Part shown: positions 2,264-60,770 of the stretch, piece after piece
Position numbering within the stretch: position 1 is the stretch's first letter
Layout of the letters: each line of letters opens with the position of its first letter
Source: an uncultured Bdellovibrionales bacterium
Lineage (GTDB): Bacteria; Patescibacteriota; Minisyncoccia; Moranbacterales; GWC2-37-73
NCBI GenBank assembly: GCA_964500125.1
Contig: CAZCMV010000003.1
Span: 11,523 to 75,522 of the forward strand
Direction: 5' to 3'
DNA length: 64,000 bases
Notes under the pieces: generated by a model
Databases searched by the model: none
What the model was told of the DNA's origin: nothing
What the model saw: only the letters and a program-made list of their open reading frames with translations
Made by a program: the position numbers and the translations under genes

Positions 2264-2291
2264 AAAAAGTGACACCGGTGTGTCATTTTTT
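2264..2291. terminator. Bidirectional intrinsic terminator between convergent pcrA and xerC.
   Basis: A-tract, stem AGTGACAC / GTGTCATT with loop CGGT, then T-tract. Overlaps the xerC stop codon. Confidence 0.5.
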
Positions 2292-3194: not shown

Positions 3195-3331
3195 GGGGTA
3201 TTTGGGAATGTTAGGAAAGTTAGAGTGTTCTGACTGATTTAATTATAACTCAAACAAATTTTAGAGTAAAAGTAACCTAACAATAATTGCTTTAAATAAA
3301 GCAAAAAATATAAAATTTGTGCATAACTCAA

Positions 3332-3359
3332 TTGACAAAAATCTCACTATGAGTATACT
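3332..3359 (+). promoter_or_regulatory. Sigma70-like promoter: TTGACA, 16-nt spacer, TATACT.
   Basis: Near-consensus hexamers in the divergent intergenic region upstream of the LysM/CHAP gene. Confidence 0.4.
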
Positions 3360-3442
3360 GGTAAGCAGTTAAAAATTAGGATTGCAGATGATGGGCCGAG
3401 AGGGGCTGTTTTATTTTCCCTATTAGCTCTAAATCTCCAGTC

Positions 3443-4663: not shown

Positions 4664-4751
4664 GATAAACTGCAATAAAAATGAAACACACAAGGCAACG
4701 TTTGATCGTTGTCTTGTTTTTGTTTTGGTGGTTATGTGATATAATTATTTT

Positions 4752-6800: not shown

Positions 6801-6896
6801 AATAATATATCAACACCGATATTTCTCTTTGTGATGTTCAGGTTCGATGTTTTATAATCGATCAAATGAGTTATCTTTTATGTTAGTATATTCAAA

Positions 6897-8348: not shown

Positions 8349-8389
8349 TGAATTGTGAATTGTAAAATATGAATTATGAATTAATCAAT
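8344..8389 (+). repeat. Heptamer-period tandem repeat (tgaattg/atgaatt units) spanning the stop of the upstream gene and the start of pilin gene 1.
   Basis: tgtgatg aattgtg aattgta aaatatg aattatg aattaat. Confidence 0.6.
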
Positions 8390-8653
8390 ATAGCGTACGC
8401 AGGAGTGATTTCAAGTGCGCCAACAATTTCTCAGATAGGATTACGCATCTTGAATTTTTTGTTGTCTATTTTTTCTTTTATTGTTATAATAACAATGTTG
8501 ATATCTGGGGTTATGTATTTTTTTGCTGCAGGTAATGAAAATATGATTGAAAAAGCAAAGAAATCTTTTCAATGGGGAATTGTTGGAATGATTGTAGGGA
8601 TAACAGGATTGATAATAATAAGATTTATTTCAGGAATTTTGAATGGTAATTAA
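8369..8653 (+). CDS. Small TrbC/VirB2-like pilin, paralogue 1 (CPR-type T4SS pilin-like).
   Basis: 94 aa with two hydrophobic helices. Shares the motif 'L..WLL....GV...VISG..Y..S.GD..MI..AK......VG..VG..GL.II' with the next two genes. Confidence 0.5.
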   Translation: MNYELINIAYAGVISSAPTISQIGLRILNFLLSIFSFIVIITMLISGVMYFFAAGNENMIEKAKKSFQWGIVGMIVGITGLIIIRFISGILNGN

Positions 8654-8683
8654 AATAAAAATAAAAATGAAAGGAGGTGCGCT

Positions 8684-9034
8684 ATGAATTTAATTAAAAA
8701 TATTTCCTATTCAGTTGCTTCCGCAGCACTTATTTTGCCTGTTAGTGTTTTTGCTCAAATAAAAAACCCTGACAATACCGGGCTTCCATCAGGCTCTATT
8801 ACGGAAATTATTACGAATTTAATGAGATGGTTGTTGATGATGGTGGGAATTTTTGGTGTTATTGGTTTTGTTATTTCCGGTATTTTGTATCTTACATCTA
8901 CGGGAGATCAGACTATGATTGATCGTGCCAAGAAAGCTATGTTGTATTCAATCGTGGGCGTATTGGTTGCTTTGCTTGGTTTGGTTATTTTCGCCGCCAT
9001 GCAAAAATTACTTACTGGAGGGGGCGAATTCTGA
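8684..9034 (+). CDS. Small TrbC/VirB2-like pilin, paralogue 2.
   Basis: 116 aa with a signal peptide. Strong RBS AAAGGAGGTG upstream. Same C-terminal two-helix motif as paralogues 1 and 3. Confidence 0.55.
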   Translation: MNLIKNISYSVASAALILPVSVFAQIKNPDNTGLPSGSITEIITNLMRWLLMMVGIFGVIGFVISGILYLTSTGDQTMIDRAKKAMLYSIVGVLVALLGLVIFAAMQKLLTGGGEF

Positions 9035-9136
9035 TCAAATTTCTTGAAAAATATTTTTCACGAAAACAGGCTTCTTGGGGAGCTTGTTTTTGTTATTTTC
9101 ATGTCGTATAATTGAATCAAGAATAAAAAACAAATT

Positions 9137-9706
9137 ATGAAATTGCTTTCAAAAAATTTTTTCCTACTCTTTTTTATAGCCTTGTTTTTGTCAGTCTTAC
9201 AGGCAGAGGCGGATGATCTTCCTTACATATATAAAGATAAGGCAGAATGTACCAACAGTGGTTGCAAAAATTGCCAAGAGGTGCTAACTGCCGGATATAA
9301 GACAATACAATGTGTGAAGACACCGACAAATACAACTTCTTCTTCAAATACAACTAAACAAAGTGTTGTTTCTCCCACCTTAAGTGTAGGAGAAGCTTCT
9401 TGTGAATCTGGATTTACAATGCAAAGCGGCGTTTGCATTCCCTCAAACACCGGACTGCCAGATAAGACAGTGCAAGAGATAGCGGTTAATCTTATGAATT
9501 GGCTTTTAGGTATATTTGCTGTTTTTGGAGTAATTGCTTTTGTTATTTCCGGGATACAATATTTAGTTTCCACTGGTGATACGAAAATCATAGAAACAGC
9601 AAAGAGAAATATGGTCTATTCTGGAGTTGGGATAATTGTGGGACTCTCCGGATTGATAATAATAAAGGCCATACAAGCTATTTTTAGTGCTAATTCAGGT
9701 ATTTGA
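9137..9706 (+). CDS. TrbC/VirB2-like pilin, paralogue 3, with a Cys-rich N-terminal extension.
   Basis: 189 aa with a signal peptide. 8 Cys in the first roughly 100 aa (CTNSGCKNCQ...QCVK...CESGF..GVCIP), then the shared pilin two-helix module. Confidence 0.5.
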   Translation: MKLLSKNFFLLFFIALFLSVLQAEADDLPYIYKDKAECTNSGCKNCQEVLTAGYKTIQCVKTPTNTTSSSNTTKQSVVSPTLSVGEASCESGFTMQSGVCIPSNTGLPDKTVQEIAVNLMNWLLGIFAVFGVIAFVISGIQYLVSTGDTKIIETAKRNMVYSGVGIIVGLSGLIIIKAIQAIFSANSGI

Positions 9707-9754
9707 CATAATGTCTTTTTTTAGCTATAATGGCTTTGTGGTGGGTTTTCAGGA

Positions 9755-9780
9755 AAGTTCGCTAGAGAAGCGGACTTTTT
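9755..9780 (+). terminator. Intrinsic terminator after the pilin gene cluster.
   Basis: Stem AGUUCGC/GCGGACU (one G-U pair), 7-nt loop, T6. Confidence 0.5.
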
Positions 9781-9897
9781 TCATAGCCTTACAAAATGTG
9801 AACCTGTTAGGAATTTACGAATGTGCAAATATAAAAGCATTGAAATTAGCATGCTGGTAAATTCGTATTAAGTGTATAATTAATAGAATATAAATTT

Positions 9898-11154
9898 ATG
9901 CCAAGAAAGAAAAAACAAGAAGAAGAATCGCAAAGTCAGAGCGGAAGACTCGGCGAATTCGGCAGTGCTATTATGCAGATTGCTGAAGAAAAAGGAATTT
10001 CCAAAGACAAAGTTATTGAAACTATCGAGGCTGCTTTGGCCGCCGCCTATAAAAAGGATTATGGCAAGAGGGGCCAGAGAATTCGGGCAGAATTCAGTCC
10101 GGTTTCGGGAGATATGAAATTCTTTTTAGTGAAAGATGTTGTTGATGAAACTGTGCGCGATTTTGCCGAGCCTGAAAGCGAGGAGGAAGAAAAAAATGTA
10201 CGTGAAAGTATTGAAGAAGAAATGGCTGAAGGCGAAGAAAAATTGCCCAGATATAATGTGGAAAGAGATATGCTCCTGGAAGAAGCAAAAAAGATCAAAA
10301 AAGATGCACAAATTGGCGATGTGATTGAACTCGAGCTTGAGTCTCATAGTGATTATGGTCGTGTAGCTGCTCAAACCGCCAAACAAGTCATCATCCAGCG
10401 TATTCGTGAAGCTGAGCGTGATGCTATGTTTTCGGAATATAAAGAAAAAGAAGGAGAAGTGCTTAGCGGAACAGTACAAAGAATTGAAGGACGTAATGTT
10501 TATATTGATCTTGGTAAATCAGTCGGTGTGCTTTTACCGAACGAGCAAGTACGAGAAGAACGTTATCGCATAGGACAGCGTTTGAAAGTATATATGCACA
10601 GAGTCGAATCTGATCCTAAAGGTCCTGGTATAATATTGAGTCGTACGCATCCGGAGATGGTGCGTAAACTCTTTGAATTGGAAGTCCCGGAAATATTTGT
10701 TGGTACCGTTGTTATAAAATCAATCGCACGCGAGGCTGGCTCAAGGTCTAAAATAGCGGTAGTTTCAGAAGAAGAGGGAATTGATCCAATTGGTTCATGT
10801 GTGGGACAAAAAGGAACACGCGTACAGGCTGTCATTGATGAGCTTGGTGGAGAAAAGATTGATATCATCGAATGGAGCGAGAATATTGCCAAATTTATAG
10901 CTGCAGCTTTGAGTCCTGCCAAAGTTCTAAATGTGGAGGCAAATGAGGAGAAAAAAGAGGCTACAGTTACGGTTCCGGAAGACCAGCTTTCTTTGGCTAT
11001 TGGCAAGAAAGGACAAAATGTCCGTTTGGCAGCTAAGCTTACCGGTTGGAAGATCGATGTTCTTGGCGGAGGGTCCGTGCAAGATAATGTAGAAGTAGAA
11101 GATGAAAATGCGGAAGAACAGGGGGATGTGGAAAGCGAGGAAGTTTTAGAATAA
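9898..11154 (+). CDS. nusA: Transcription termination/antitermination factor NusA.
   Basis: S1 and KH regions with 'ILSRTHPEMVRKLFELEVPEI' and 'GSCVGQKGTRVQAV' signatures. Acidic insertion near the N-terminus and an acidic C-terminal tail. Confidence 0.85.
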   Translation: MPRKKKQEEESQSQSGRLGEFGSAIMQIAEEKGISKDKVIETIEAALAAAYKKDYGKRGQRIRAEFSPVSGDMKFFLVKDVVDETVRDFAEPESEEEEKNVRESIEEEMAEGEEKLPRYNVERDMLLEEAKKIKKDAQIGDVIELELESHSDYGRVAAQTAKQVIIQRIREAERDAMFSEYKEKEGEVLSGTVQRIEGRNVYIDLGKSVGVLLPNEQVREERYRIGQRLKVYMHRVESDPKGPGIILSRTHPEMVRKLFELEVPEIFVGTVVIKSIAREAGSRSKIAVVSEEEGIDPIGSCVGQKGTRVQAVIDELGGEKIDIIEWSENIAKFIAAALSPAKVLNVEANEEKKEATVTVPEDQLSLAIGKKGQNVRLAAKLTGWKIDVLGGGSVQDNVEVEDENAEEQGDVESEEVLE

Positions 11155-16293: not shown

Positions 16294-16557
16294 AATATTT
16301 TTTGTTTCTTATGCTTATTTCTTGCTAATTATAGCATGTATATTTTTTTGACAAAAGATGCCGCATGATATACCATGTTCGGTAGAGGTAAAATATATTT
16401 TTTGGTGTCCAGCAGATAGAAATGCTGCAAATAAAGCGATTATGAGCCATATTAGAAAAAAAAGCTACTTTCTTGTATTGAAATATATGGAAACATCCCC
16501 TAGAGGATGCTTGCTTGGTGTGGGTATTTTGGATCTGTTGAACAACAACTAAAGAAC

Positions 16558-18090
16558 ATGGAAATTGGCATAATAAATGCTTTTGGTTTGCCAATAGCAT
16601 TGGTTTTTGGGGTTTTTGGAGGATATTTGATTCGTCAGTTTATTGCCAAAAAACAACTTACTACTGCAGAGGGAAAAGTTGAAAAAATGGTCGAAGATGC
16701 TGAAAAAAAGGCTCAAGAAACCGTTATTTCGGCTAAAAACAAAGCTGTTGAAATCTTAGAGGAGGCCAAGAAAAAAGAAAAGGTTCGCGAGGATCAGATT
16801 TTGCGCTTGGAACAAAGATTAGTTAAGCGTGAAGAGACTTTGGATCAGAAAATAGATGATTTGGATCGCGGGAAAAAAATTCTGGAACAAAAAGCAGAGG
16901 AAATTCGTGCAATCCGTCGAGAGACCGAACAAGCTCGCAAAAAGGAAATGGAAAGACTGGAGAAGATTGCGGGACTTTCCAAAGAACAGGCTAAAAATAT
17001 TTTATTACAGCTTACGGAGGAAGAACATCGCGATCTGATAGCTAAGCGTATAGCAAAACTAGAAAAGGAAAGCAAAGAGGAAATTGAGAAAAAAGCTCGC
17101 AATATCATGACTGGTGTAATTCAAAAATATGCTGGTTCTCATGCGGCGGAAATAGTAACTACAACAGTAGCCATTCCTTCTGATGAGGTAAAAGGCAGGA
17201 TCATTGGGCGTGAGGGACGTAATATCAAGGCGCTGGAACGTCTGACTGGTATTGAAATAATTGTGGATGATACTCCGGAAGCAGTGGTGCTTTCTGGGTT
17301 TGATCCTGTGCGTCGTGAGATTGCACGTATATCTTTGGAAAAATTGATCAATGATGGACGCATTCATCCGACTCGCATCGAGGAGGCGGTTGAGTTTGCC
17401 AAGAAAGAAATTGAAAATAAAGTGCGTGAAGCTGGTGAGGCTGCGGCATATGATCTAGGAATTGCTGGTTTGGATCCAAAATTAATAAGTGTGTTGGGAA
17501 GATTACGTTATCGCACAAGTTTTGGTCAAAATGCTTTGCTGCATTCCTTGGAGGTGGCTCACCTTTCAGGGGCTTTGGCTGCTGAGTTAGGGGCGGATGT
17601 TAACATTGCCAAGAAAGCAGGACTTTTGCATGATATTGGTAAAGCTGTAGATCATGAGATTCAAGGGACACATGTGGAAATCGGTATCAAGATATTGGAA
17701 AAGTTTGGTATGTCCAAGGAGGTTATTAATGCTGTGAAGGCTCATCATGAGGATTATCCGTTTGAGTCGGCAGAATCTTTTATTGTCGCTGCTGCAGATG
17801 CAATTTCAGCAAGTCGTCCGGGAGCGCGTAAAGATACTTTGGAAAATTATCTTAAGCGATTGGAAGAATTGGAATCAACGGCTAACTCATTTGAGGGAGT
17901 TGATAAGACTTATGCAATTCAGGCTGGTCGTGAAATACGTGTTTTTGTGAAGCCGGAAGAGGTGGATGATTTGGGCGCATTGCGTATGGCGCGTGAAATT
18001 GCCGATAAAATAGAGCAAGAATTAAAATATCCCGGAGAAATAAAAGTAAATGTAATACGTGAAACGAGAAGTGTTGAATTTGCACGATAA
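16558..18090 (+). CDS. rny: Ribonuclease Y.
   Basis: N-terminal TM helix, coiled-coil, KH domain, HD domain 'LLHDIGKAVDHE'. Start set at MEIGII. Confidence 0.85.
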   Translation: MEIGIINAFGLPIALVFGVFGGYLIRQFIAKKQLTTAEGKVEKMVEDAEKKAQETVISAKNKAVEILEEAKKKEKVREDQILRLEQRLVKREETLDQKIDDLDRGKKILEQKAEEIRAIRRETEQARKKEMERLEKIAGLSKEQAKNILLQLTEEEHRDLIAKRIAKLEKESKEEIEKKARNIMTGVIQKYAGSHAAEIVTTTVAIPSDEVKGRIIGREGRNIKALERLTGIEIIVDDTPEAVVLSGFDPVRREIARISLEKLINDGRIHPTRIEEAVEFAKKEIENKVREAGEAAAYDLGIAGLDPKLISVLGRLRYRTSFGQNALLHSLEVAHLSGALAAELGADVNIAKKAGLLHDIGKAVDHEIQGTHVEIGIKILEKFGMSKEVINAVKAHHEDYPFESAESFIVAAADAISASRPGARKDTLENYLKRLEELESTANSFEGVDKTYAIQAGREIRVFVKPEEVDDLGALRMAREIADKIEQELKYPGEIKVNVIRETRSVEFAR

Positions 18091-24285: not shown

Positions 24286-25410
24286 ATGCTTTCATATATT
24301 GAAATATCAAAAGATAATTTGTTGCATAATTTCAAAGTTATCAAAAACTTTGTGCATCCCGAAACGAAGATTGCGGCTGTGATTAAGGCCAATGCCTATG
24401 GGCATGGGCAAAATGAAATCGCCAAGCTATTGGAAAATGTTGTCGACTATTTTCAAGTTGATGATTTGGAAGAATTGCGATTGCTTCGTCAAGTTACGCA
24501 AAAACCTGCCTTGGTATTGGGCTATGTTGCCAAAGATGAACTGGAAGAAGTAATTGATCTTGAGGGTACGCTTTCTATATACGATGAAGAAAGACTAAAT
24601 ATGGTTGATGATATTGCTAAGAAAAAAAATAAGCGAGTGGGTGTGCATGTGAAAATAGATGCTTATCTTGGACGCCAAGGCGTGTTGGTTGATCAAGTGG
24701 ATGCTTTTATAAATCTAATTAAGCAATGCAAAAATATTGAGGTTAAGGGACTTTATTGTCATTTCGCTAACATAGAAGATACTTCCGATTTTTCACATGC
24801 GCAAAAACAAATCGACGGTTTTTCCGAAGCTATTGGCAAGTTTCGTGCTGCTGGGTTTTCAGATTTTGAAACCCATGCGAGCGCGACATCAGGAGTGTTG
24901 GTATATGAACAGAAAAATTTGTCCAACACTTTGATACGTCCTGGAATCGGGGCATATGGCATGTGGCCGTCGGAAGAGTTGAGAGGGAGATTTGAGAAAG
25001 AAAATTTCACGTTGAAACCGGTAATGCGCTGGATTAGTCATGTGGCGCAAGTTAAAACAGTTCCGGCGGGATATTCGATTGGTTATGGTTTAACATATAT
25101 AACTTCAAAGCCTACAAAAATAGCAGTTATTCCACAGGGATATAGCGATGGATTTGATCGCGGACTTTCCAATGTCGGGGAAGTCTTAATAAGAAAGACT
25201 CGCTGCAGGGTGCTCGGTAGGGTTGCAATGAACATGTTTGTAGTGGATGTTTCTCATTTGGAAGATGTAAAACAAGAGGATGAAATTGTGCTTTTAGGTA
25301 GACAGGGAGAGGAGGAAATAACTGCAGAGGAAATTGCCGCTCACTTAGGGACAATAAATTATGAAATCACAACCCGTTTCAACCCGTTGCTCAGAAGGAT
25401 TATAGTATAA
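24286..25410 (+). CDS. alr: Alanine racemase.
   Basis: PLP-site 'AVIKANAYGHG', about 370 aa. Confidence 0.85.
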   Translation: MLSYIEISKDNLLHNFKVIKNFVHPETKIAAVIKANAYGHGQNEIAKLLENVVDYFQVDDLEELRLLRQVTQKPALVLGYVAKDELEEVIDLEGTLSIYDEERLNMVDDIAKKKNKRVGVHVKIDAYLGRQGVLVDQVDAFINLIKQCKNIEVKGLYCHFANIEDTSDFSHAQKQIDGFSEAIGKFRAAGFSDFETHASATSGVLVYEQKNLSNTLIRPGIGAYGMWPSEELRGRFEKENFTLKPVMRWISHVAQVKTVPAGYSIGYGLTYITSKPTKIAVIPQGYSDGFDRGLSNVGEVLIRKTRCRVLGRVAMNMFVVDVSHLEDVKQEDEIVLLGRQGEEEITAEEIAAHLGTINYEITTRFNPLLRRIIV

Positions 25411-25425
25411 GAATGCTTTACGTTT

Positions 25426-26139
25426 TTGCTGAATTGCTGTATAGTTTATGGATGCAGAAAGTCCCCCAAGAGGGGCACTGCATTTAAAAAAATTAGTGAT
25501 GGCGTGCGTATTGAAATGTGCGTCATTCCACAAATGATGAAAGAAAAAAAGATGCTGCATCCAAGTGATGCACTTTCACATATGAAGGATGAGGAGCTGG
25601 TTGCCGAATCATTGAAAAACCCTCAGATCTATGGATTGTTGATGGAAAGGTATGAAGATAAATTGATGCGCTATATCATGCGCATTTCGGCAAGCTCAAG
25701 AGAAGACGCGGAGGATATTCTTCAAGACGTTTTTTTGAGTGCATATCGCAACCTCAATGAATTTGATCAGGATTTGAAATTTTCATCTTGGATATATCGC
25801 ATTACCCATAACAAAGTGATCAGTCATTATCGAAAGGTTAGCGTGCGTCCCAAAACAACGACATATGAAGGTGATAATGAACTGCTAAACATTTTGGCAA
25901 GCGACCATGATGTGGAAGCTGATCTGCAGAAAAAATATGATGCCAAAGCTATTCATGATATTTTGGAAAAAATGGATGAGCGTTATCGCGAAGTGTTAGT
26001 ACTCAAATTTATCGAAGACAAAGATTACAAAGAAATTTCCGATATTTTGCAAAAGCCGATGGGAACTGTTGCTACGCTAATTAATAGGGCCAAGAAACAG
26101 TTTCGTGAACGATTATCATCTGGCAGTGTCATTAAATAA
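25426..26139 (+). CDS. ECF-type RNA polymerase sigma factor (sigma-70 regions 2 and 4). True start probably 30-50 codons downstream of the ORF start.
   Basis: Region 2 'DILQDVFLSAYRNLNEFD...SWIYRITHNKVISHYRK'. Region 4 'YREVLVLKFIEDKDYKEISDILQKPMGTVATLINRAKKQFRE'. Confidence 0.75.
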   Translation: MLNCCIVYGCRKSPKRGTAFKKISDGVRIEMCVIPQMMKEKKMLHPSDALSHMKDEELVAESLKNPQIYGLLMERYEDKLMRYIMRISASSREDAEDILQDVFLSAYRNLNEFDQDLKFSSWIYRITHNKVISHYRKVSVRPKTTTYEGDNELLNILASDHDVEADLQKKYDAKAIHDILEKMDERYREVLVLKFIEDKDYKEISDILQKPMGTVATLINRAKKQFRERLSSGSVIK

Positions 26140-26152
26140 TCCAAAAATCAGT

Positions 26153-26866
26153 ATGACCAAATTGAGCGAAAAAGTGCTCAGCACGATAGAACAAGATCAT
26201 CTTACTCCGCAACCACGTTGGAAATTCCAGGCAAAAAATTACGGCATATGGATGGCCTTTGGTCTTTCTGTGTTTTTGGGAAGTGTGGCTTTTGCGGTCA
26301 TGATGGAAAGGATAGTTAAGGGTGATTGGGATGTGTATGCGTATTTGGACAGGGGTTTCATCGGTTTTGTGTTGTTGCTTTTGCCATATGCTTGGATTGT
26401 TTCATTGGTAGCCTTTGGTATGCTTGCATACTACAATTGTCGTCACACCAAATGCGGCTATCGATATGCGCCATGTGTGGTTGTTCTGCTAAGTATCGGA
26501 ACCAGTCTCGTTGTGGGAGAAATTTTATTTATTTCAGGGACTGGAAGAAAAGTTGACCGCATCCTCGTGCGTTCAATCCCGTTTTACCAGCAGATGAAAA
26601 TGCAAGAAAGAAGGGATATTTGGATGCATCCCGAAAGAGGTTTATTAATGGGTGAAGTGATGGAAATAGGCGAAGGTGGAACTATACTTATTAGAGATGT
26701 GAAGGGAAACGTGTGGCGTATCAATAAGAGAATAGACCATGTTTCCGTACCACATCCTTCGGAGCAGCGTTCCATTCTTAAGATAATCGGTGAAAATGTT
26801 CAAGGGAGAGAATTCAATGCTTACGATATCAGGCTTTGTGATTGTGAGGAAGAATTTGATAGATAA
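26153..26866 (+). CDS. Membrane protein co-transcribed with the ECF sigma factor; possible anti-sigma factor.
   Basis: Starts 14 nt after the sigma stop. 3-4 predicted TM helices, then a roughly 110-aa soluble C-terminal domain. No recognisable anti-sigma domain motif. Confidence 0.4.
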   Translation: MTKLSEKVLSTIEQDHLTPQPRWKFQAKNYGIWMAFGLSVFLGSVAFAVMMERIVKGDWDVYAYLDRGFIGFVLLLLPYAWIVSLVAFGMLAYYNCRHTKCGYRYAPCVVVLLSIGTSLVVGEILFISGTGRKVDRILVRSIPFYQQMKMQERRDIWMHPERGLLMGEVMEIGEGGTILIRDVKGNVWRINKRIDHVSVPHPSEQRSILKIIGENVQGREFNAYDIRLCDCEEEFDR

Positions 26867-28366: not shown

Positions 28367-28726
28367 ATGGAAGAGACAAACCAGGAGCAGAAAGCTGCCC
28401 CAACCGTGGATAAAGCAGATGCGGAAAAGAACAAAGCAATGGCAATCGTGGGTTACATTATCCCGATCTTGTTCTTCGTTCCATTGGTAACTGATGCAAA
28501 AAACAGTGTGTTTGCAAGATTTCATGCCAACCAGCAACTAAATCTTTTGTTGGCTTGTATTGCGGTTAATGTTGTTGGAACATTAATTCCTTTCCTGGGC
28601 TGGTTTATCATCCTTCCTATTGGTACGATTATCCTGATTGTTTTGGCAATTATGGGAATCATTAACGGTGCTAAGGGAGAAATGAAAAAACTTCCGATTA
28701 TTGGTGGTTTTGAGTTGATCAAATAG
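28367..28726 (+). CDS. Small membrane protein, DUF4870-like.
   Basis: 119 aa, two TM helices; 'AIVGYIIPILFFVPLV...FHANQ' resembles DUF4870 family proteins. Confidence 0.45.
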   Translation: MEETNQEQKAAPTVDKADAEKNKAMAIVGYIIPILFFVPLVTDAKNSVFARFHANQQLNLLLACIAVNVVGTLIPFLGWFIILPIGTIILIVLAIMGIINGAKGEMKKLPIIGGFELIK

Positions 28727-28743
28727 ATTACAGGCTTTTGTAG

Positions 28744-28772
28744 CGGGTGACCTTTGCGGTCACCCGTTTTTT
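28744..28772 (+). terminator. Intrinsic terminator after the DUF4870-like gene.
   Basis: Stem CGGGTGACC/GGTCACCCG, loop TTTGC, T6. Confidence 0.6.
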
Positions 28773-28789
28773 ATTTTATTATGTATACA

Positions 28790-35464: not shown

Positions 35465-36196
35465 TTACTGAATTGTCCAACCTCCATCGACCACGATAAC
35501 TTGTCCGGTAATGTAGCTGGATTTTTCAGATGCTAAGAAAACGACCGCATTGGCAATGTCTTCAGGTTCTCCCATCCGCTTAAGTGGAACTCCGGCCACC
35601 GTTTGCTTTTCAGCCTCTTCGTTTGATTGGGCGCCGGGTGTTCTGATCGCTCCGGGAGCAACGGAGTTGACAGTGATCTTTTTCGGGGCAAGTTCCAATG
35701 CTAAAGCTCTTATCATTCCATTGACTCCGCCCTTGGAGGCACAGTAATGAACTAATCCGGAAAATCCCTGGATCGAGGCGATTGATGAAACGTTGATGAT
35801 TCTTCCTCCCTCCGGCATTGTTTTGATCGCTTCTTTGGTGCAAAAGAAGACTCCTTTCATATTGACATCCATGACCTTATCCCAATCTGATTCCTGCATT
35901 TGTTCGAAAGGAGTGAATGGATATATCCCAGCATTGTTGACCAGGACATTGACTCGTCCGAATTCTTTCGCAGTCTGCGCAAAAAGATCGGCAACTTCTT
36001 CGGATTTTGAAATATCGCATTTGATTGCGATTGATTTTGCTCCAAGCTGGGCTATTTCTTCAGTAACCTGCTTGGCGTTTTCAACATTAAGGTCGGCCAC
36101 TACAACGTTATAGCCGATTTTGGCCATTTCTAGAGCTATGCCCCTTCCAATACCTACTCCGGCTCCTGTGACGATAGCCGTTTTTCTGTTTTGCAT
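35465..36196 (-). CDS. Short-chain dehydrogenase/reductase (FabG-like 3-oxoacyl-ACP reductase family).
   Basis: 'TGAGVGIGRGIALEMA' Rossmann motif, 'NAG', catalytic 'YCASKGGVNGMIRALALE'. Confidence 0.75.
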   Translation of the reverse strand: MQNRKTAIVTGAGVGIGRGIALEMAKIGYNVVVADLNVENAKQVTEEIAQLGAKSIAIKCDISKSEEVADLFAQTAKEFGRVNVLVNNAGIYPFTPFEQMQESDWDKVMDVNMKGVFFCTKEAIKTMPEGGRIINVSSIASIQGFSGLVHYCASKGGVNGMIRALALELAPKKITVNSVAPGAIRTPGAQSNEEAEKQTVAGVPLKRMGEPEDIANAVVFLASEKSSYITGQVIVVDGGWTIQ

Positions 36197-36343
36197 TTTT
36201 TTGTTTTTTACTTGTTATGAAATAAAAAGACGGGAAGTACCCATCTTTTCTCATCTTCTTCAATTATAGCACAAATTTTCACCAAAGTCTAGACTGTGTA
36301 CTTAAAGGTAGCAGAAGGGAACATGGATAACACTTCAAAGTCT

Positions 36344-46518: not shown

Positions 46519-46582
46519 AGTTTTTAAGTTGCAAAATCCAAAAAACATATAAATTTCTTGTCAATATTATTTCGTTCCCTAA

Positions 46583-46606
46583 AGCTCCCATCCAGGGGAG
46601 CTTTTC
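46583..46606 (+). terminator. Intrinsic terminator after the anchored surface-protein gene.
   Basis: AGCTCCC-ATCCAG-GGGAGCT then TTTT. Confidence 0.5.
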
Positions 46607-46612
46607 AATTAA

Positions 46613-46641
46613 TTGACTTTAGGCAAAAAAACTGCTATAAT
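46613..46641 (+). promoter_or_regulatory. Consensus sigma70 promoter: TTGACT, 17-nt spacer, TATAAT.
   Basis: Perfect -10, 5/6 -35, optimal spacing. Confidence 0.6.
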
Positions 46642-46664
46642 AGATGTATATAGAAGTGGAGGAA

Positions 46665-46686
46665 AACGGGTGAAAGCCCGTTTTTT
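46665..46686 (+). promoter_or_regulatory. Leader hairpin plus U-tract (AACGGG-TGAAAG-CCCGTT-TTTTTT) in the 5' UTR of the 957-aa gene. Paralogous copy upstream of the gene at 60159.
   Basis: Terminator-like structure roughly 20 nt downstream of the promoter and roughly 25 nt before the ATG. Confidence 0.5.
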
Positions 46687-46712
46687 ATCTATTTCAGGTC
46701 AAAAATTTAGGC

Positions 46713-49586
46713 ATGCGCATCAAAATTCATACAAAAACAAAATCCGTAACTAGGGGGCTACGAGTAGGAGAGCTACTCTTTTTTGTGGCCATTTTTTCAT
46801 CTTTATTCCTGGGAACTTCTTCGGCAAAAGCTGCTTTCAATGAAAGCATCAACTATCAAGGCAAGTTGACTGATGGAAATGCAATTCCTGTATCTGACGG
46901 GGCATACGACATTGTTTTTAAGCTTTATGATGCGGCTGCGGGTGGCTCAACAGTCTGGAATGAATCTTTGACTAGTTCCAATCTTTGGACTGAGACGGTG
47001 AGTACGACAATAACGCGCAACGCTGCAGGTTGTGGAGGCAGTGGCTTCACTAGTATCGTTTATGCTACGGGAACTAACGAGGCATCTATTGCTATTGGAC
47101 AGACGATTTGGAACACTACTTTGAAAGAATCAGCAGTGGTTACAGACATAACAACTGGCACTAATACGCTTTGTGTTTCTAATCCCTATTCTTCTTGGGC
47201 TAATTCGGATGATCTTACTAATCGGGTGTATATTAAAAGCGGACTTTTTTCGGTGATGTTGGGAAAGTATGAAAGTCTTTCTTCTGTGGACTTCAATCAA
47301 ACTCTTTATCTTGGTGTGTTAGTCGGAAACGATTCGGAAATGGTGCCTCGCAAGATGATTGGAGCCGTTCCGGCTGCTTTTACGGCCAAAACACTTAATA
47401 ATAACGGAAGCGCTGCGATTGCTACAAATGATGGCGCCACTTTGAATATCGGTAATACCACGGGAGCTGTTACAATGAATTCAGGCGGCGTTTCTGCATG
47501 GACAAATACGGCTGGAAATTTGACCATTTCTACAGCAACTTCCGGAATATTAACCTTAAATTCGGCAGGATCGCTTGATTTGACTGGCGCTTCAGCTTCC
47601 AGTTTTGCCACTACGGCAGGCAATATTACTTTGCAATCAGCCGGCTCAAGTACTGTTGGTACCGTGCAAATTGGTGCTGGGGGAGTTGGTTCTATTACGC
47701 CTGATTTTTTTGGTTTAGACGTGAAATCAGACACCGGTGATCCCGCTGGTGGTTTCGAAGGTGCTATGTATTATAATACTTTCGATAATAAGTTTAGATG
47801 TTATCAAAACGCTGGTTGGACCGATTGCATCAGCGCTGGCGGAAGCACTACATTGCAAAATTCCTATGATCAGACAAATGGGAACACAATTGTTTCTACT
47901 TCAGGAAAAAACATAGCGCTTACGCTTGAAGAAGTTGACACGCCAACCTCATTTGCGATTGAAAATCAAGACACTTCTGGAATCAATGCAGAATATATAA
48001 ATAATTCAATCACTTCGGGAACATTGGCAAATGCGCTTACAATTGACAATACAGGTGCTGGTACTATTACTAATGCGATTAATATTTTAGAAACAGCTGG
48101 AACAATAACGACGGGGATTAATATTGGTAATAATGTAGGAACGGGAATTTCCATCGGGACTGGCGCGACCACAGGTATTTTTGTTGGTTCAGGTGGTGTT
48201 ACGATTGCTGCCGGTGCATTGAATGTCAATTCTGATGAAATTATTTCAGATGGTTCTACGCTTACTATAAATGCCGGAGGAATAGTCGATATTCAAGATA
48301 TTCTAAATGCAGATTCAATCACTTCTGATGCGGGTGTCTCCATTGCTTCTGGTGGAAGTTATACAGGCGCTGGTGCAGTAACACTTTCTTCAGCTTCTGC
48401 TTCGGCACTTACGATTGATTCGGGAACAACAGGAAATCTCGATATAGGCACCGGGGCAAATGCTAAAATAATTACGCTTGGAAATTCCACTGGTGCTACC
48501 GTGGTCAATATAAATTCCGGCACTGGCGGCATTAGCTTTCAGGCAGCAGGAACCGGAACAACAGATACTATCCAAATTGGTGAAGGGGGAAGTGGTTCTT
48601 CAACGCCTGATATTTTAGCACTTGATGTGAAATCTGATTCTGGAGATCCGGTAGGTTTTGAAGGAGCGATGTACTATAACAACAATATTAATAAGTTTCG
48701 ATGTTACCAAGATACAGCATGGACGGACTGTATCGGTGCAGGGGGCGGTAGTGGTGGTGATAATATAAGTATTAATGGAACTTCCATAACTGATGCTGAT
48801 TTTGACAATGTTACCCCGGCTTCTCCCATGGGAGGAGTAAATATGAAATGGCAAAGAGATTCTTCTACGCCTAATAATGTAAGCGCTTATTTTGATTTTG
48901 CAGATTATGATGGAGCTTTTAAGAAAAAGCCGACCTATGCATCTGATTTTATTTCCGGAACAGCAGTAGCTTATAATCTGCCATTTGTTGGGGCGGGTAT
49001 TTCTTCCGGAACAGTAACTGCTCCTTTGGCAGCGGCTATTGATAGTGATCACCCTGGTATTATGCGCTTACGTTCAAATACAACTGCCAATGGAGGGTAT
49101 CGCTATCAAGCTTATGCGGACTCAATTCGTTTTAAGGGCGGAGAAATATTTAATGCAGTTTTATATCATGAAAATATTGATACGACGATCGTAAGAATGG
49201 GATTTAATGACAATACAACTTACGCTGATGCGGTTGATGGTTGTTATTTTGAAGTTCCAACAACCGGAGTTGTAATTGGAAAATGTTCCAATGATTCAAC
49301 GAGAACGTCAACAACAGGAAGTTATACGATTTCAACTGGTACGTGGTATTCATATAGGGTCACTTTGAACTCTGATGCCACATTGGCGACGTTTGAAATT
49401 TTTGATAGTAACGGAAATTCTCTTTGGACAAGCAATAATACCGTTTCGTCCAATATACCGACTGCAGCTGGCAGAGAAACAACTGCGGGCATAATCGCTA
49501 CCGAGTCCTCAACTACGGCAACGTATATGGTTGATTTGGATTATATGAGTTTCAGTTTAGGAACCGCAAGCCCATTGGCGCGTTAG
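46713..49586 (+). CDS. Large secreted Gly/Thr/Ser-rich surface protein, 957 aa, with internal repeats.
   Basis: Signal peptide. Repeated about 40-aa module 'LDVKSD(T/S)GDP..GFEGAMYYN...NKFRCYQ...WTDCI' twice (about aa 330-375 and 640-680). C-terminal roughly 250-aa beta-rich domain. Confidence 0.6.
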   Translation: MRIKIHTKTKSVTRGLRVGELLFFVAIFSSLFLGTSSAKAAFNESINYQGKLTDGNAIPVSDGAYDIVFKLYDAAAGGSTVWNESLTSSNLWTETVSTTITRNAAGCGGSGFTSIVYATGTNEASIAIGQTIWNTTLKESAVVTDITTGTNTLCVSNPYSSWANSDDLTNRVYIKSGLFSVMLGKYESLSSVDFNQTLYLGVLVGNDSEMVPRKMIGAVPAAFTAKTLNNNGSAAIATNDGATLNIGNTTGAVTMNSGGVSAWTNTAGNLTISTATSGILTLNSAGSLDLTGASASSFATTAGNITLQSAGSSTVGTVQIGAGGVGSITPDFFGLDVKSDTGDPAGGFEGAMYYNTFDNKFRCYQNAGWTDCISAGGSTTLQNSYDQTNGNTIVSTSGKNIALTLEEVDTPTSFAIENQDTSGINAEYINNSITSGTLANALTIDNTGAGTITNAINILETAGTITTGINIGNNVGTGISIGTGATTGIFVGSGGVTIAAGALNVNSDEIISDGSTLTINAGGIVDIQDILNADSITSDAGVSIASGGSYTGAGAVTLSSASASALTIDSGTTGNLDIGTGANAKIITLGNSTGATVVNINSGTGGISFQAAGTGTTDTIQIGEGGSGSSTPDILALDVKSDSGDPVGFEGAMYYNNNINKFRCYQDTAWTDCIGAGGGSGGDNISINGTSITDADFDNVTPASPMGGVNMKWQRDSSTPNNVSAYFDFADYDGAFKKKPTYASDFISGTAVAYNLPFVGAGISSGTVTAPLAAAIDSDHPGIMRLRSNTTANGGYRYQAYADSIRFKGGEIFNAVLYHENIDTTIVRMGFNDNTTYADAVDGCYFEVPTTGVVIGKCSNDSTRTSTTGSYTISTGTWYSYRVTLNSDATLATFEIFDSNGNSLWTSNNTVSSNIPTAAGRETTAGIIATESSTTATYMVDLDYMSFSLGTASPLAR

Positions 49587-50405: not shown

Positions 50406-50433
50406 ATAATTAACTAAAGCAAACAAGCAAAAA

Positions 50434-50458
50434 CTGCCAGATGCGCGGCAGTTTTTTT
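50434..50458 (+). terminator. Intrinsic terminator.
   Basis: CTGCC-AGATGCGC-GGCAG then T7. Confidence 0.55.
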
Positions 50459-60050: not shown

Positions 60051-60079
60051 TTGCTTTTTGTCTTTAAATGGTGTATAAT
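60051..60079 (+). promoter_or_regulatory. Promoter-like element TTGCTT, 17-nt spacer, TATAAT. Paralogous to the promoter at about 46613.
   Basis: Downstream leader agatatagaaatgtgag... matches the leader of the 957-aa gene. Confidence 0.4.
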
Positions 60080-60109
60080 AGATATAGAAATGTGAGAAAC
60101 AAGCGAAAA

Positions 60110-60132
60110 AACGGGTGAAATGCCCGTTTTTT
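60110..60132 (+). promoter_or_regulatory. Leader hairpin plus U-tract AACGGG-TGAAATG-CCCGTT-TTTT. Second copy of the element at about 46665.
   Basis: Near-identical stem to the other copy; loop differs by 1 nt. Confidence 0.5.
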
Positions 60133-60158
60133 CTTTATTTTTTACAAAAAACAAAAAA

Positions 60159-60770
60159 ATGACTAAAAAAAGCAAAAAAAACATATATTTGGGACTTGAT
60201 TTGGGTAATGTTAGTCCGTCTCGTGCCCGTATACTGGGACTTATTATCGCTATTATATTTTTAGAGACTTATTTGGTCGTCTATCAAAATATTCAACGCG
60301 AAGAAGTTGTTATGGTGCCTACGATTCAGAAAGTATCCCCTAAAAAAAGTACGGTTTTGGAAAAAGAGATCAAAGAGATGGTTAAGGGATATCCGATTGA
60401 AGAAATGACACCCTATATTGCATCATATGATCGTGAGGTGGCTGCATTTTTGGTGGGTATTGCTAAAAAGGAAAGCAATTGGGGAAAAAGAAAACCTGTG
60501 CTTGCCGGCGAGGATTGTTACAACTATTGGGGATTTCGCATGAAGTCCGAGCGCATGGGCAGTGGAGGTCATACTTGTTTCGATAACCCCAAGGAAGCGG
60601 TTGATGCTGTGGCCAGTCGTATTGATCAAATGGTTAAAGAAGAAAATCTTGATACTCCTAAAAAAATGGCGGTGTGGAAATGCGGATATAATTGTACTCA
60701 TCCCACAGCCAGTGTGAAAAAATGGGAACAAGATGTTGAATATTATTATGATCAGCTTGCTGATAAATAA
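60159..60770 (+). CDS. Secreted/anchored protein with a lytic-transglycosylase-like 'ES' motif (putative cell-wall hydrolase).
   Basis: N-terminal TM; 'AAFLVGIAKKESNWGKRK' resembles the SLT catalytic Glu-Ser region; 4 Cys. Start set at MTKKSKK; the track ORF begins inside the leader hairpin. Confidence 0.4.
   Translation: MTKKSKKNIYLGLDLGNVSPSRARILGLIIAIIFLETYLVVYQNIQREEVVMVPTIQKVSPKKSTVLEKEIKEMVKGYPIEEMTPYIASYDREVAAFLVGIAKKESNWGKRKPVLAGEDCYNYWGFRMKSERMGSGGHTCFDNPKEAVDAVASRIDQMVKEENLDTPKKMAVWKCGYNCTHPTASVKKWEQDVEYYYDQLADK

What the first reader, a model, noticed from the sequence alone, without database searches (positions are those of the whole stretch)
46613..46690. Conserved promoter-leader-terminator element upstream of two unrelated secreted-protein genes
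About 70 nt upstream of the 957-aa surface-protein gene there is a consensus promoter (TTGACT, 17-nt spacer, TATAAT). A leader follows (agatgtatatagaagtggagg...) that ends in a terminator-like hairpin plus U-tract (AACGGG-TGAAAG-CCCGTT-TTTTTT) before the ATG. A paralogous element with a near-identical -10, a similar leader and the same hairpin (loop TGAAATG) is at about 60051-60135, upstream of the SLT-like gene at 60159. A promoter-proximal intrinsic terminator implies attenuation or antitermination control, or a small RNA, shared by cell-surface genes.
Basis: seen in the sequence. Interest (0 to 1): 0.55.

Follow-up and report, generated by a model that had tools for sequence, protein, structure and literature searches.

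The report
Conserved leader hairpin before envelope genes
Both copies are real and belong to a previously uncatalogued family, found across Moranbacteria-type (CPR) genomes, of strong promoters followed by a terminator-like RNA hairpin with an invariant CGGGUG motif, placed directly upstream of cell-envelope genes and probably throttling their transcription.

Summary
Copy A has its promoter at 46613-46641 and its hairpin plus T-run at 46661-46686. Copy B has its promoter at 60051-60079 and its hairpin at 60105-60133.

The element is far from unique. More than 55 distinct copies occur in Moranbacteria-like CPR genomes and metagenomes, always co-oriented and 8-160 nt upstream of a gene. The genes include:
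- homologues of the 203-aa gene, a membrane-anchored protein with a GH73-like peptidoglycan-hydrolase fold;
- homologues of the 957-aa surface protein;
- CAP-domain secreted proteins;
- an enolpyruvyl-transferase gene;
- other genes.

The stem shows compensatory and G·U changes, so the constraint acts on the + strand RNA. CGGGUG at the junction of the 5' arm and the loop is nearly invariant. It is present in 47/49 promoter-proximal hairpins but in only about 1-4% of other terminator-like hairpins.

No Rfam family matches. No alternative antiterminator fold exists, and leader length is variable (about 13-55 nt). A classical riboswitch is therefore unlikely.

Best reading (about 0.45): a promoter-proximal intrinsic terminator (attenuator) whose read-through depends on a trans-acting factor that recognises the CGGGUG hairpin. 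This would define an envelope regulon. Rivals are an mRNA-stabilising or translation-related 5' hairpin, and a short sRNA. The function is inferred, not shown.

The parts
46613..46641 (+). Copy A promoter: -35 TTGACT (46613-18), 17-nt spacer with extended -10 TG (46633-34), -10 TATAAT (46636-41)
   Evidence: 11/12 match, best in 20 kb. The same 'type 2' promoter (TTGAC..AAAC(C)TGCTATAAT) is seen in L013, L035, L059 and L061.
46648..46660 (+). Copy A purine-rich leader. The transcription start is inferred at about 46648, 7 nt after the -10. The leader forms the 5' arm of the outer helix.
   Evidence: the MFE fold pairs 46653-46660 with 46688-46695. The start site is inferred, not shown.
46661..46686 (+). 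Copy A terminator-like hairpin GGAAAACGGG-UGAA(AG)-CCCGUUUUUU. It includes the invariant CGGGUG (46667-46672) and the T-run (46681-46686).
   Evidence: leader -23.2 kcal/mol, z = -5.4. CM R1 scores 76.7 bits.
46713..49586 (+). Downstream gene A: a 957-aa protein with a signal-peptide-like N-terminus and an SO2946-like C-terminal domain
   Evidence: Homologues in four other genomes carry the same element upstream.
60051..60079 (+). Copy B promoter: -35 TTGCTT (60051-56), 17-nt spacer, GGTG + TATAAT (60074-79); 'type 1' promoter
60086..60104 (+). Copy B purine-rich leader (start inferred at about 60086)
   Evidence: it pairs with the U-rich tract downstream of the hairpin.
60105..60133 (+). Copy B terminator-like hairpin GAAAAAACGGG-UGAAAUG-CCCGUUUUUUC, with CGGGUG at 60112-60117 and the T-run at 60127-60132
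   Evidence: -23.7 kcal/mol, z = -5.7. CM R1 scores 76.4 bits.
60159..60770 (+). Downstream gene B: a 203-aa membrane-anchored protein ('family 1') with a predicted GH73-like peptidoglycan-hydrolase fold
   Evidence: In one search the top PDB matches are FlgJ, LytB and Ecd09610 glucosaminidases (prob 0.9-1.0, TM 0.44-0.57, E only 0.07-0.4).
36212..36304 (-). Copy C, a weaker relative. Promoter AGACTTTGGTGAAAATTTGTGCTATAAT (-10 at 36268-36263), leader tgaagaagatgagaaa, hairpin AGAUGGG-UACUU-CCCGUCU (36246-36228) plus a T-run, then the ATG at 36196 of a FabG-like SDR (35465-36196). It has GGGUA instead of GGGUG.
   Evidence: 31.6 bits, E 0.006; -15.8 kcal/mol, z = -3.4. The same stem, AGATGGG/CCCGTCT, occurs with GGGTG in L111.

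Best explanation
The element is a cis-acting 5'-leader RNA. It belongs to a conserved family in Moranbacteria-type CPR bacteria.

Proposed mechanism:
1. A near-consensus sigma-70-type promoter starts transcription about 7 nt after the -10.
2. After 10-50 nt of purine-rich leader, RNA polymerase transcribes a GC-cored hairpin flanked by an A-run and a T-run. This has the anatomy of an intrinsic terminator.
3. By default most polymerases stop there, giving a roughly 40-60-nt RNA. Only read-through transcripts carry the downstream gene, which often begins 8-30 nt after the hairpin and so has no promoter of its own.
4. No competing antiterminator helix is encoded. The only universally conserved nucleotides beyond the stem are CGGGUG(A), at the junction of the 5' arm and the loop. 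Read-through is therefore most likely set by a trans-acting factor that recognises this hairpin. That factor could be an RNA-binding antiterminator or terminator-enhancer, or a general factor such as NusA or NusG.
5. This would link a peptidoglycan hydrolase, large surface proteins, CAP-domain secreted proteins and envelope-biosynthesis enzymes into one regulon.

Shown: the conservation, the RNA-level pairing, the terminator anatomy, the motif specificity and the gene association. Inferred: the start site, actual termination, regulation and the factor.
For: (1) Both window copies are real and non-random.

(2) A genome-collection scan for the hairpin found about 22 CPR loci (Moranbacteria, Parcubacteria and unnamed MAGs) with the same order: promoter, leader, hairpin, T-run, ATG.

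(3) A search blind to the RNA gave the same result. Eighty metagenome loci were chosen only by homology to the 203-aa protein (44-64% identity). About 40 of them carry the element upstream (R1 hits of 31-98 bits). These are the loci in which the gene has the window gene's short N-terminus.

(4) Homologues of the 957-aa gene (47-65% identity) in four other genomes all carry the element, each with a different hairpin sequence.

(5) The stem is supported by covariation: 92% of cells are paired, and 8 of 13 pairs show changes on both sides. No shuffle out of 500 reached this, and slid controls gave 48-63%. Stem variants include ACGGG/CCCGT, GCGGG/CCCGC, GCGG/CCGC, AGAUGGG/CCCGUCU and GCGAG/CUCGU. 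G·U variants (TCCGT, CCTGT, TCTGT) pair only in the + strand RNA. A C-G to U-A swap separates the close relatives L001 and L153.

(6) The T-run is more conserved than its A-run partner. T columns are invariant or at least 90% conserved, while the 5' A-run tolerates C and U. This is what a functional U-tract predicts.

(7) GGGTG is present in 47/49 promoter-proximal terminator-like hairpins but in only 14/361 others. About 10 of those 14 are leader copies missed by the strict promoter rule. The motif persists whether its third G is paired or lies in the loop, and even when the loop is replaced by an extra helix, as in L150.

(8) The arrangement is selective. Only copies A, B and C and the nusA leader show it among the roughly 40 intergenic regions listed for the window.

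(9) The distance to the ATG is too short for another promoter in most copies.

(10) The hairpins look like genuine 3' terminators of the same genome, for example 50429-50456.
Against: - There is no transcript data, so termination and its regulation are inferred.
- No alternative (antiterminator) structure exists. The MFE fold is a single long hairpin in which the U-tract can pair fully with the purine-rich leader. This also fits a purely structural 5'-UTR hairpin.
- Placing a strong terminator behind a near-consensus promoter, in front of genes that are conserved across the clade and probably highly expressed, seems wasteful unless read-through is substantial.
- No candidate antiterminator gene is syntenic. 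The conserved neighbours are a 123-aa coiled-coil protein, Dus and a small membrane protein.
- Most copies are orthologous (upstream of family 1), so the number of independent observations is smaller than the number of sequences.
Confidence: 0.45

Rival explanations
1. The element is a 5'-UTR stabiliser or translation element, not a terminator. The long hairpin starts about 5-8 nt from the 5' end and would protect highly expressed envelope mRNAs from 5'-end-dependent decay by RNase J or RNase Y. It might also organise the SD-less ribosome-binding region just downstream. The SD-like GGGUGA could bind the 16S 3' end, as the STAB-SD element of cryIIIA does.
For: - The MFE folds of A and B are single hairpins of about 20 bp beginning 5 nt from the inferred 5' end.
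- The extended helix is 91% pairable in 24 type-1 copies.
- The organism has RNase Y (window 16507-18090), and a relative has RNase J.
- The promoters are near-consensus and the genes encode surface or secreted proteins.
- From my own knowledge, ompA, S-layer genes and cryIIIA use such stabilisers.
- GGGUGA is complementary to the canonical anti-SD UCACCU (own knowledge). Some window genes use canonical GGAGG SDs.
Against: - A stabiliser does not need an uninterrupted T-run straight after a GC stem. That T-run is the most conserved part and is better conserved than its A-run partner.
- The extended helix shows almost no covariation beyond its composition (shuffled mean 89.8% against 91.2% observed).
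- In several copies 25-45 nt of unpaired leader, or extra hairpins, precede the element (L097, L116, L152). This conflicts with a strictly 5'-terminal stabiliser.
- GGG of the motif is usually sequestered in the stem.
Confidence: 0.25
2. The element is a small-molecule riboswitch with a terminator-embedded aptamer, as in the HMP-PP/thiS class. It would sense an envelope-related metabolite such as a peptidoglycan precursor or a nucleotide sugar.
For: - Conserved nucleotides lie inside and on the shoulder of a terminator stem.
- The downstream genes share a theme: a peptidoglycan hydrolase, an enolpyruvyl transferase and surface proteins.
- From my own knowledge, there is precedent in cell-wall hydrolase genes controlled by the ydaO (c-di-AMP) riboswitch.
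Against: - Leader length (about 13-55 nt) and sequence are not conserved between subtypes.
- Only about 6-7 nt are invariant.
- Loop length varies from 4 nt to an inserted helix.
- No second helix, pseudoknot or alternative pairing is detected.
- This is too little conserved structure for a selective binding pocket.
Confidence: 0.08
3. The element is an independent small-RNA gene. The terminated RNA of about 45-60 nt, with a purine-rich 5' tail, a hairpin and a U-tail, would be the functional product and would act in trans.
For: The architecture (promoter, short single-stranded 5' region, terminator hairpin, U-tail) is that of many base-pairing sRNAs.
Against: - Every one of more than 55 copies is co-oriented with, and immediately upstream of, an ORF that has no room for its own promoter.
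- The 5' tails differ between copies, while the hairpin is the conserved part.
- Multiple copies per genome sit in front of different genes.
Confidence: 0.08
4. The element is a DNA-level operator: an inverted repeat bound by a repressor such as the adjacent MarR-like protein, acting as a roadblock downstream of the promoter.
For: - AAAACGGG-N6-CCCGTTTT is a perfect DNA palindrome at about +20 to +45.
- A MarR-like gene is divergent from copy B, and the same is seen in close relatives.
Against: - The variants keep RNA pairing through G·U. These would be A/C mismatches of symmetry on DNA and occur only on one arm.
- Spacer (loop) length varies from 4 to over 15 nt.
- The MarR neighbour is present only in a minority of loci, whereas the element precedes at least 5 gene families.
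Confidence: 0.04
5. There is nothing special here: two ordinary terminators that happen to lie after promoter-like sequences.
For: The same 21-mer hairpin occurs as an ordinary 3' terminator in unrelated bacteria (Brevibacillus, Clostridia and others).
Against: The same promoter-hairpin-gene order is conserved across dozens of genomes whose proteins are only about 50% identical, and it shows compensatory changes.
Confidence: 0.02

Closest known systems
Promoter-proximal intrinsic-terminator attenuators whose read-through is set by a factor rather than by an encoded antiterminator. Examples are LoaP-dependent leaders of polysaccharide/polyketide operons, NusA-autoregulated nusA leaders and the B. 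subtilis pyrG leader (own knowledge).
   Same: - A short leader and a canonical terminator hairpin before the first gene.
- No competing helix encoded.
- Association with envelope or surface functions, as in the LoaP and RfaH regulons.
- The nusA gene of this very window also has a promoter-proximal terminator-like hairpin.
   Different: - No NusG paralogue or other factor has been identified.
- The conserved recognition motif (CGGGUG) lies in the terminator hairpin itself, not in a separate upstream hairpin or ops-like DNA site.
- There is no sign of reiterative transcription tracts.
HMP-PP (thiS) riboswitch, a terminator-embedded aptamer (own knowledge)
   Same: Conserved nucleotides are embedded in and around an intrinsic terminator stem; the element is very small.
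   Different: There is no conserved second pairing element, the leader is variable, and the loop tolerates large insertions.
Lambda nut boxB / rrn leader antitermination signals (own knowledge)
   Same: - A small GC hairpin with a purine-rich, GNRA-like loop close to a promoter.
- The following U-rich segment (UUGCU(C)UUUA) loosely resembles boxA.
   Different: - boxB is not itself a terminator.
- The boxA resemblance is explained by stem extension and U-richness.
- No N-like protein is known in these genomes.
- Nothing here was tested beyond sequence.
5'-UTR mRNA stabilisers (ompA 5' hairpin, S-layer gene leaders, STAB-SD of cryIIIA; own knowledge)
   Same: A strong promoter, a stable hairpin near the 5' end, an SD-like sequence remote from the start codon, and abundant surface proteins.
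   Different: Those elements carry no U-tract and are not terminator-shaped.
Rfam cis-regulatory motifs upstream of cell-wall genes (ydaO/c-di-AMP, lysM-TM7, lysM-Actino and others)
   Same: The genomic context (peptidoglycan-related genes). lysM-TM7 also comes from a CPR lineage.
   Different: No match to any of the 4227 Rfam 15 models at gathering threshold. The weak E-value hits are unrelated families far below threshold.

Membership tests
Intrinsic (Rho-independent) terminator | GC-rich stem of at least 5 bp with a 3-8 nt loop | tested here: met
   flags 46661-46686 and 60105-60133. One search gives -23 kcal/mol for the leaders. Covariation is shown.
Intrinsic (Rho-independent) terminator | U-rich tract immediately 3' of the stem | tested here: met
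   T5-T6 follows the stem in nearly all of the 55 aligned copies. The T columns are invariant or at least 90% conserved.
Intrinsic (Rho-independent) terminator | Transcripts actually end in the U-tract | not testable with these tools
   Needs Term-seq, 3'-end mapping or in vitro transcription.
Transcriptional riboswitch | Conserved multi-helix aptamer of fixed architecture upstream of, or overlapping, the terminator | tested here: not met
   The distance from the -10 to the hairpin varies from about 13 to 55 nt. Leader sequence differs between subtypes, and only one helix is found.
Transcriptional riboswitch | Mutually exclusive antiterminator pairing | tested here: not met
   The MFE and centroid folds of A and B show only the terminator hairpin, extended. 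The leader is purine-rich and cannot pair with the G-rich 5' arm.
Any Rfam 15 family | Score at or above the family gathering threshold | tested here: not met
   One search finds only 4 tRNAs in the window. In some searches the best hits are 13-23 bits against thresholds of 40-114.
Trans-acting sRNA gene | Stand-alone transcription unit whose position and orientation are independent of the next gene | tested here: not met
   All copies are co-oriented and 8-160 nt upstream of an ORF.
Leader-peptide (ribosome-mediated) attenuator | Conserved short ORF overlapping the terminator | tested here: not met
   A GUG lies in the loop of nearly all copies. However, loop indels shift the frame, and the peptide, its length and its stop are not conserved (read directly from the sequences).
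STAB-SD-type stabiliser | SD-like sequence in the 5' UTR complementary to the 16S rRNA 3' end and accessible to 30S subunits | tested here: inconclusive
   GGGUGA is complementary to the canonical UCACCU (own knowledge). However, the 16S gene of this organism is not in the window, and GGG is normally paired in the stem.
Palindromic repressor operator | Symmetric half-sites at fixed spacing | tested here: not met
   One-arm C-to-T changes (G·U in RNA) and spacer lengths from 4 to over 15 nt.

The most novel reading that the evidence does not exclude
The CGGGUG hairpin is the RNA operator of a so far unknown RNA-binding antiterminator (or a terminator-embedded ligand sensor). It would coordinate peptidoglycan remodelling, surface-protein production and envelope biosynthesis in Moranbacteria-type CPR bacteria. 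This would be the first regulon-level riboregulatory system defined for the Patescibacteria, which are uncultured and whose gene regulation is essentially unknown.
Probability: 0.3. Interest if true: 0.72.

Novelty: new member of a known kind. Interest (0 to 1): 0.55.

Why it matters
CPR/Patescibacteria have tiny genomes and few recognisable regulators, and no genetic system exists for them. Almost nothing is known about how they control their cell envelope, which is the interface with their hosts.

This is a compact, easily recognisable cis-element. It marks the promoters and 5' UTRs of a peptidoglycan hydrolase family (about 2,000 homologues, all annotated as hypothetical), of large surface proteins and of CAP-domain proteins. 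It offers three things:
- experimentally testable promoter and leader parts;
- a way to enumerate a putative envelope regulon by scanning genomes;
- a bait (the CGGGUG hairpin) for finding the cognate factor.

It is also a candidate new family for RNA-motif databases.

Tried and rejected
- Rfam: gathering threshold on the whole window, and E-value mode on both regions. Nothing relevant was found.
- Alternative antiterminator folds: none. The leaders fold into one hairpin. RNAalifold on the MAFFT alignment recovered only the core stem.
- Leader peptide or upstream ORF from the loop GUG/AUG. In copy B such an ORF ends in an ATGA overlap with the gene start, but frames and lengths are not conserved among copies (sequences).
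- TTG/ATG N-terminal extensions in frame with the gene. These are inconsistent across loci, and gene callers use the 60159 start.
- K-turn/K-loop, T-loop, anticodon-loop and T-box resemblances. I considered these from memory and rejected them on sequence: there is no GA adjacent to the 3' stem strand, the loops are variable and the leader is too short.
- ops/RfaH-like DNA element: only 5/12 matches.
- Conserved neighbour genes as candidate regulators: only a coiled-coil protein, Dus and a small membrane protein are syntenic.
- Viral contig scan for the hairpin: three irrelevant hits.
- Literature: two full-text searches found no description of such a motif in CPR.
- PDB sequence search with the family-1 profile: nothing. 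Only the fold comparison gave the GH73-like hint.
- A generic scan for 'strong promoter followed by hairpin' across 642 kb found almost only GGGTG-type elements, plus a nusA leader.

Full report
**1. Observation**

Reading the window confirms every detail of the finding.

Copy A:
- TTGACT at 46613-18, a 17-nt spacer containing an extended -10 TG, and TATAAT at 46636-41.
- A leader, then AACGGG-TGAAAG-CCCGTT at 46665-82, T6, and the ATG at 46713.

Copy B:
- TTGCTT at 60051-56, a 17-nt spacer, and TATAAT at 60074-79.
- AACGGG-TGAAATG-CCCGTT at 60110-28, T6, and the ATG at 60159.

The hairpin pattern is found twice against 0.09 expected. The copy A promoter is the best of the 50 promoter-like sites in 20 kb, and both hairpins are called terminator-like. 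The copies share TATAATAGAT and a 24-nt hairpin/T-run block.

The gene upstream of copy A ends with its own terminator (46579-46605), ahead of the promoter. Copy B lies between divergent genes.

**2. The organism**

The window proteins are identical to entries from an NCBI MAG contig of 88 kb. Their homologues are named Candidatus Moranbacteria or Moraniibacteriota, so this is a CPR/Patescibacteria genome of about 39% GC.

**3. The element is a family**

*Scan by hairpin sequence.* An exact-pattern scan of 185,579 species genomes for the hairpin gave 63 loci. In Firmicutes and other phyla the hairpin is an ordinary 3' terminator. In about 22 CPR loci it sits in the same arrangement as in the window: -35, 17 nt, -10, a purine-rich leader, the hairpin, the T-run and then an ATG.

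Two promoter/leader subtypes appear:
- Type 1: TTGACTTTT..TGGGTGTATAAT with leader GAAUAGAUAGAG. Copy B belongs here.
- Type 2: TTGACAAA..AAACCTGCTATAAT with leader AUAGUGAAU... Copy A belongs here.

*Search blind to the RNA.* Because that scan required the hairpin sequence, I repeated the test without reference to the RNA. I fetched 80 metagenome loci solely by homology to the 203-aa protein (44-64% identity). A covariance model built from the first set (R1) hits directly upstream of the gene in about 40 of them. These are the loci whose gene has the same short lysine-rich N-terminus. The distant subgroup, with long N-terminal extensions, lacks the element.

*Homologues of the 957-aa gene.* Homologues in four further genomes (47-65% identity) all have a promoter plus a CGGGUG hairpin plus a T-run immediately upstream, each with a different stem or loop.

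*Further copies.* The model also found two more in this genome, both with different hairpins and with nearly identical promoters:
- Copy C, at 36304-36212 on the minus strand, lies before a FabG-like reductase.
- Copy D lies 1.4 kb beyond the window end, before a 345-aa protein.

**4. Anatomy and constraint**

*The stem.* Across 41 distinct sequences the 13-bp stem is 92% paired, and 8 pairs change on both sides. No shuffle out of 500 reached this, and slid controls gave 48-63%.
- Variants include GCGGG/CCCGC, GCGG/CCGC, AGAUGGG/CCCGUCU and GCGAG/CUCGU.
- Several one-sided C-to-U changes give G·U pairs.
- Copy D shows a C-G to U-A swap between close relatives.
- G·U pairs and loop lengths from 4 nt to an inserted helix (L150) point to an RNA structure on the + strand rather than a DNA operator.

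*The T-run.* It is better conserved than the A-run it could pair with.

*The CGGGUG motif.* CGGGUG(A) at the junction of the 5' arm and the loop is nearly invariant, whether or not its last G is paired. It occurs in 47/49 promoter-proximal terminator-like hairpins but in only 14/361 other terminator-like hairpins in the same DNA. Most of those 14 are leader copies that my strict promoter rule missed.

*The leader.* It varies in length (about 13-55 nt from the -10) and in sequence, and it is purine-rich. In copies A and B the whole leader folds into one long hairpin (-23 kcal/mol, z about -5.5) in which the purine-rich arm pairs with the U-rich tract. In 24 type-1 copies an 18-bp helix is 91% pairable, but this is mostly a matter of composition. 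No alternative antiterminator pairing is seen.

**5. Genes served**

- Family 1 (window 60159-60770) has about 1,960 homologues, all hypothetical, and no Pfam or PDB sequence match. An AlphaFold model (pLDDT 82) resembles GH73-type peptidoglycan glucosaminidases such as FlgJ, LytB and Ecd09610. Probability is 0.9-1.0, but E is only 0.07-0.4 and TM is 0.44-0.57, so this is a hint and not proof.
- The 957-aa protein has a signal-peptide-like N-terminus and an SO2946-like C domain.
- Type-2 copies in other genomes precede CAP-domain secreted proteins. Two copies precede an enolpyruvyl-transferase (MurA/AroA family) gene 245-300 nt away.
- With FabG-like copy C, the common theme is envelope biogenesis rather than secretion as such.
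- The distance from the hairpin to the ATG is usually 8-30 nt. That leaves no room for another promoter, so the mRNAs must include the hairpin.
- The arrangement is selective. Among the roughly 40 intergenic regions listed for the window, only A, B, C and the nusA leader have it.

**6. Mechanism**

The most economical reading is a promoter-proximal intrinsic terminator, that is, an attenuator. Since no competing helix is encoded and the only conserved non-pairing information is CGGGUG in the hairpin, read-through is probably set by a trans-acting factor that recognises the hairpin. I give this reading about 0.45. That the element is a functional cis-acting RNA hairpin of the 5' UTR I hold at about 0.85.

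The main rival, at about 0.25, is a 5'-UTR stabiliser or translation element. The organism has RNase Y. The hairpin starts near the inferred 5' end in some copies, and GGGUGA is SD-like. But an uninterrupted, highly conserved U-tract is unnecessary, and even counter-productive, for that role.

The other rivals are weaker:
- A terminator-embedded riboswitch: the conserved part is too small and the leader too variable.
- A free sRNA: every copy is always glued to a gene.
- A DNA operator: the G·U changes and the variable spacer argue against it.
- Chance: refuted by the conservation.

**7. Comparison and novelty**

No Rfam 15 family matches, and two literature searches found no description.

In kind, the element resembles factor-dependent leader terminators (LoaP-type leaders, NusA autoregulation) and, more loosely, boxB-type hairpins, the HMP-PP terminator-embedded riboswitch and STAB-SD/ompA-type stabilisers. 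It meets the sequence definition of an intrinsic terminator and fails the tests for a riboswitch, a leader-peptide attenuator, an sRNA gene and an operator (see the membership table). I therefore class it as a new member of a known kind: a leader attenuator or cis-regulatory hairpin motif. It is specific to a CPR lineage.

**8. Caveats**

- Transcription start sites, termination and regulation are inferred.
- Many copies are orthologous, so counts of sequences overstate the number of independent events.
- The CM-derived alignment leans towards the modelled structure.
- The hydrolase assignment rests on a moderate fold match.
- The factor is unknown.

Noticed in passing
window 9704-9782 (+), upstream of nusA (9898-11154); also L142:3190-3290: The nusA gene has its own consensus promoter (TTGACA-17-TATAAT) followed by a terminator-like hairpin, AAAGUUCGC-UAGAGAA-GCGGACUUUUUU, without the GGGUG motif. 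A second promoter lies closer to the gene. A similar promoter plus hairpin precedes nusA in metagenome locus L142. This may be a NusA-autoregulated leader terminator.
   Followed up: partly
window 36212-36304 (-) and L001:12643-12740 (about 1.4 kb beyond the window end): Two further promoter-proximal hairpins (copies C and D) share a nearly identical 28-nt promoter, (A/G)GACTTTGGTGA(A/G)AATTTGTGCTATAAT, but have different hairpins. They precede a FabG-like SDR and a 345-aa protein with no Pfam match. The copy D hairpin shows a compensatory C-G to U-A change in relative L153.
   Followed up: partly
L015, L017, L037, L040, L050, L052, L058, L067-L070, L083 (between the hairpin and the ATG of the family-1 gene): A second conserved block, aAAATTAGCCTATATAAGCCATTATT, with AGCC repeated 11 nt apart, lies 20-45 nt downstream of the hairpin in the subset of loci with long (60-90 nt) spacers. 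It may be a protein-binding site or a second regulatory element. It is absent from the window copy.
   Followed up: no
L154:9849-9987: In a close relative (protein 78% identical) the copy B leader carries an insertion of about 35 nt. It begins with a partial duplicate of the hairpin 5' arm (AAAAGACGGGC...) ahead of a complete CGGGUG hairpin, which suggests local duplication or slippage at the element.
   Followed up: no
window 28741-28775 (+): The 3' terminator of the 119-aa gene 28367-28726 (GCGGGTGACC-tttgc-GGTCACCCGT plus a T-run) also contains CGGGUGA. Here it is part of a longer stem and has no promoter upstream. It is one of the few GGGTG-bearing hairpins that is not a leader.
   Followed up: partly
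L153:18528-18824 and L154:16390-16686 (relatives; would lie beyond the window end): A 98-aa RRM_1-domain RNA-binding protein is encoded 6-8 kb downstream of the copy B locus in two close relatives. It is a possible, untested candidate for an RNA-binding factor.
   Followed up: no
window 24286-26866 (+): Alanine racemase is followed directly by an ECF-type sigma factor (25426-26139) and an overlapping 253-aa ORF without a Pfam match, possibly an anti-sigma factor. This is another candidate envelope-stress regulatory module.
   Followed up: no
window 2283-9706: A tyrosine integrase (2283-3194, minus strand) and a LysM+CHAP peptidoglycan hydrolase (3443-4663). These are followed by two large ORFs without Pfam matches and three consecutive T4SS-pilin-like small genes (8369-9706). 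Together they look like a surface-appendage or conjugation-like cluster.
   Followed up: no
L006, L017, L041, L048, L051 (genome contigs records): MAGs labelled 'uncultured Bdellovibrionales' carry Moranbacteria-type loci: the family-1 gene, the CAP gene and the same promoter-hairpin element. This suggests mis-binning or mis-classification of those records.
   Followed up: no
window 16507-18090 (+): RNase Y is encoded in the window, and RNase J in relative L152. This indicates a Firmicute-like mRNA decay machinery, which bears on the stabiliser hypothesis.
   Followed up: no
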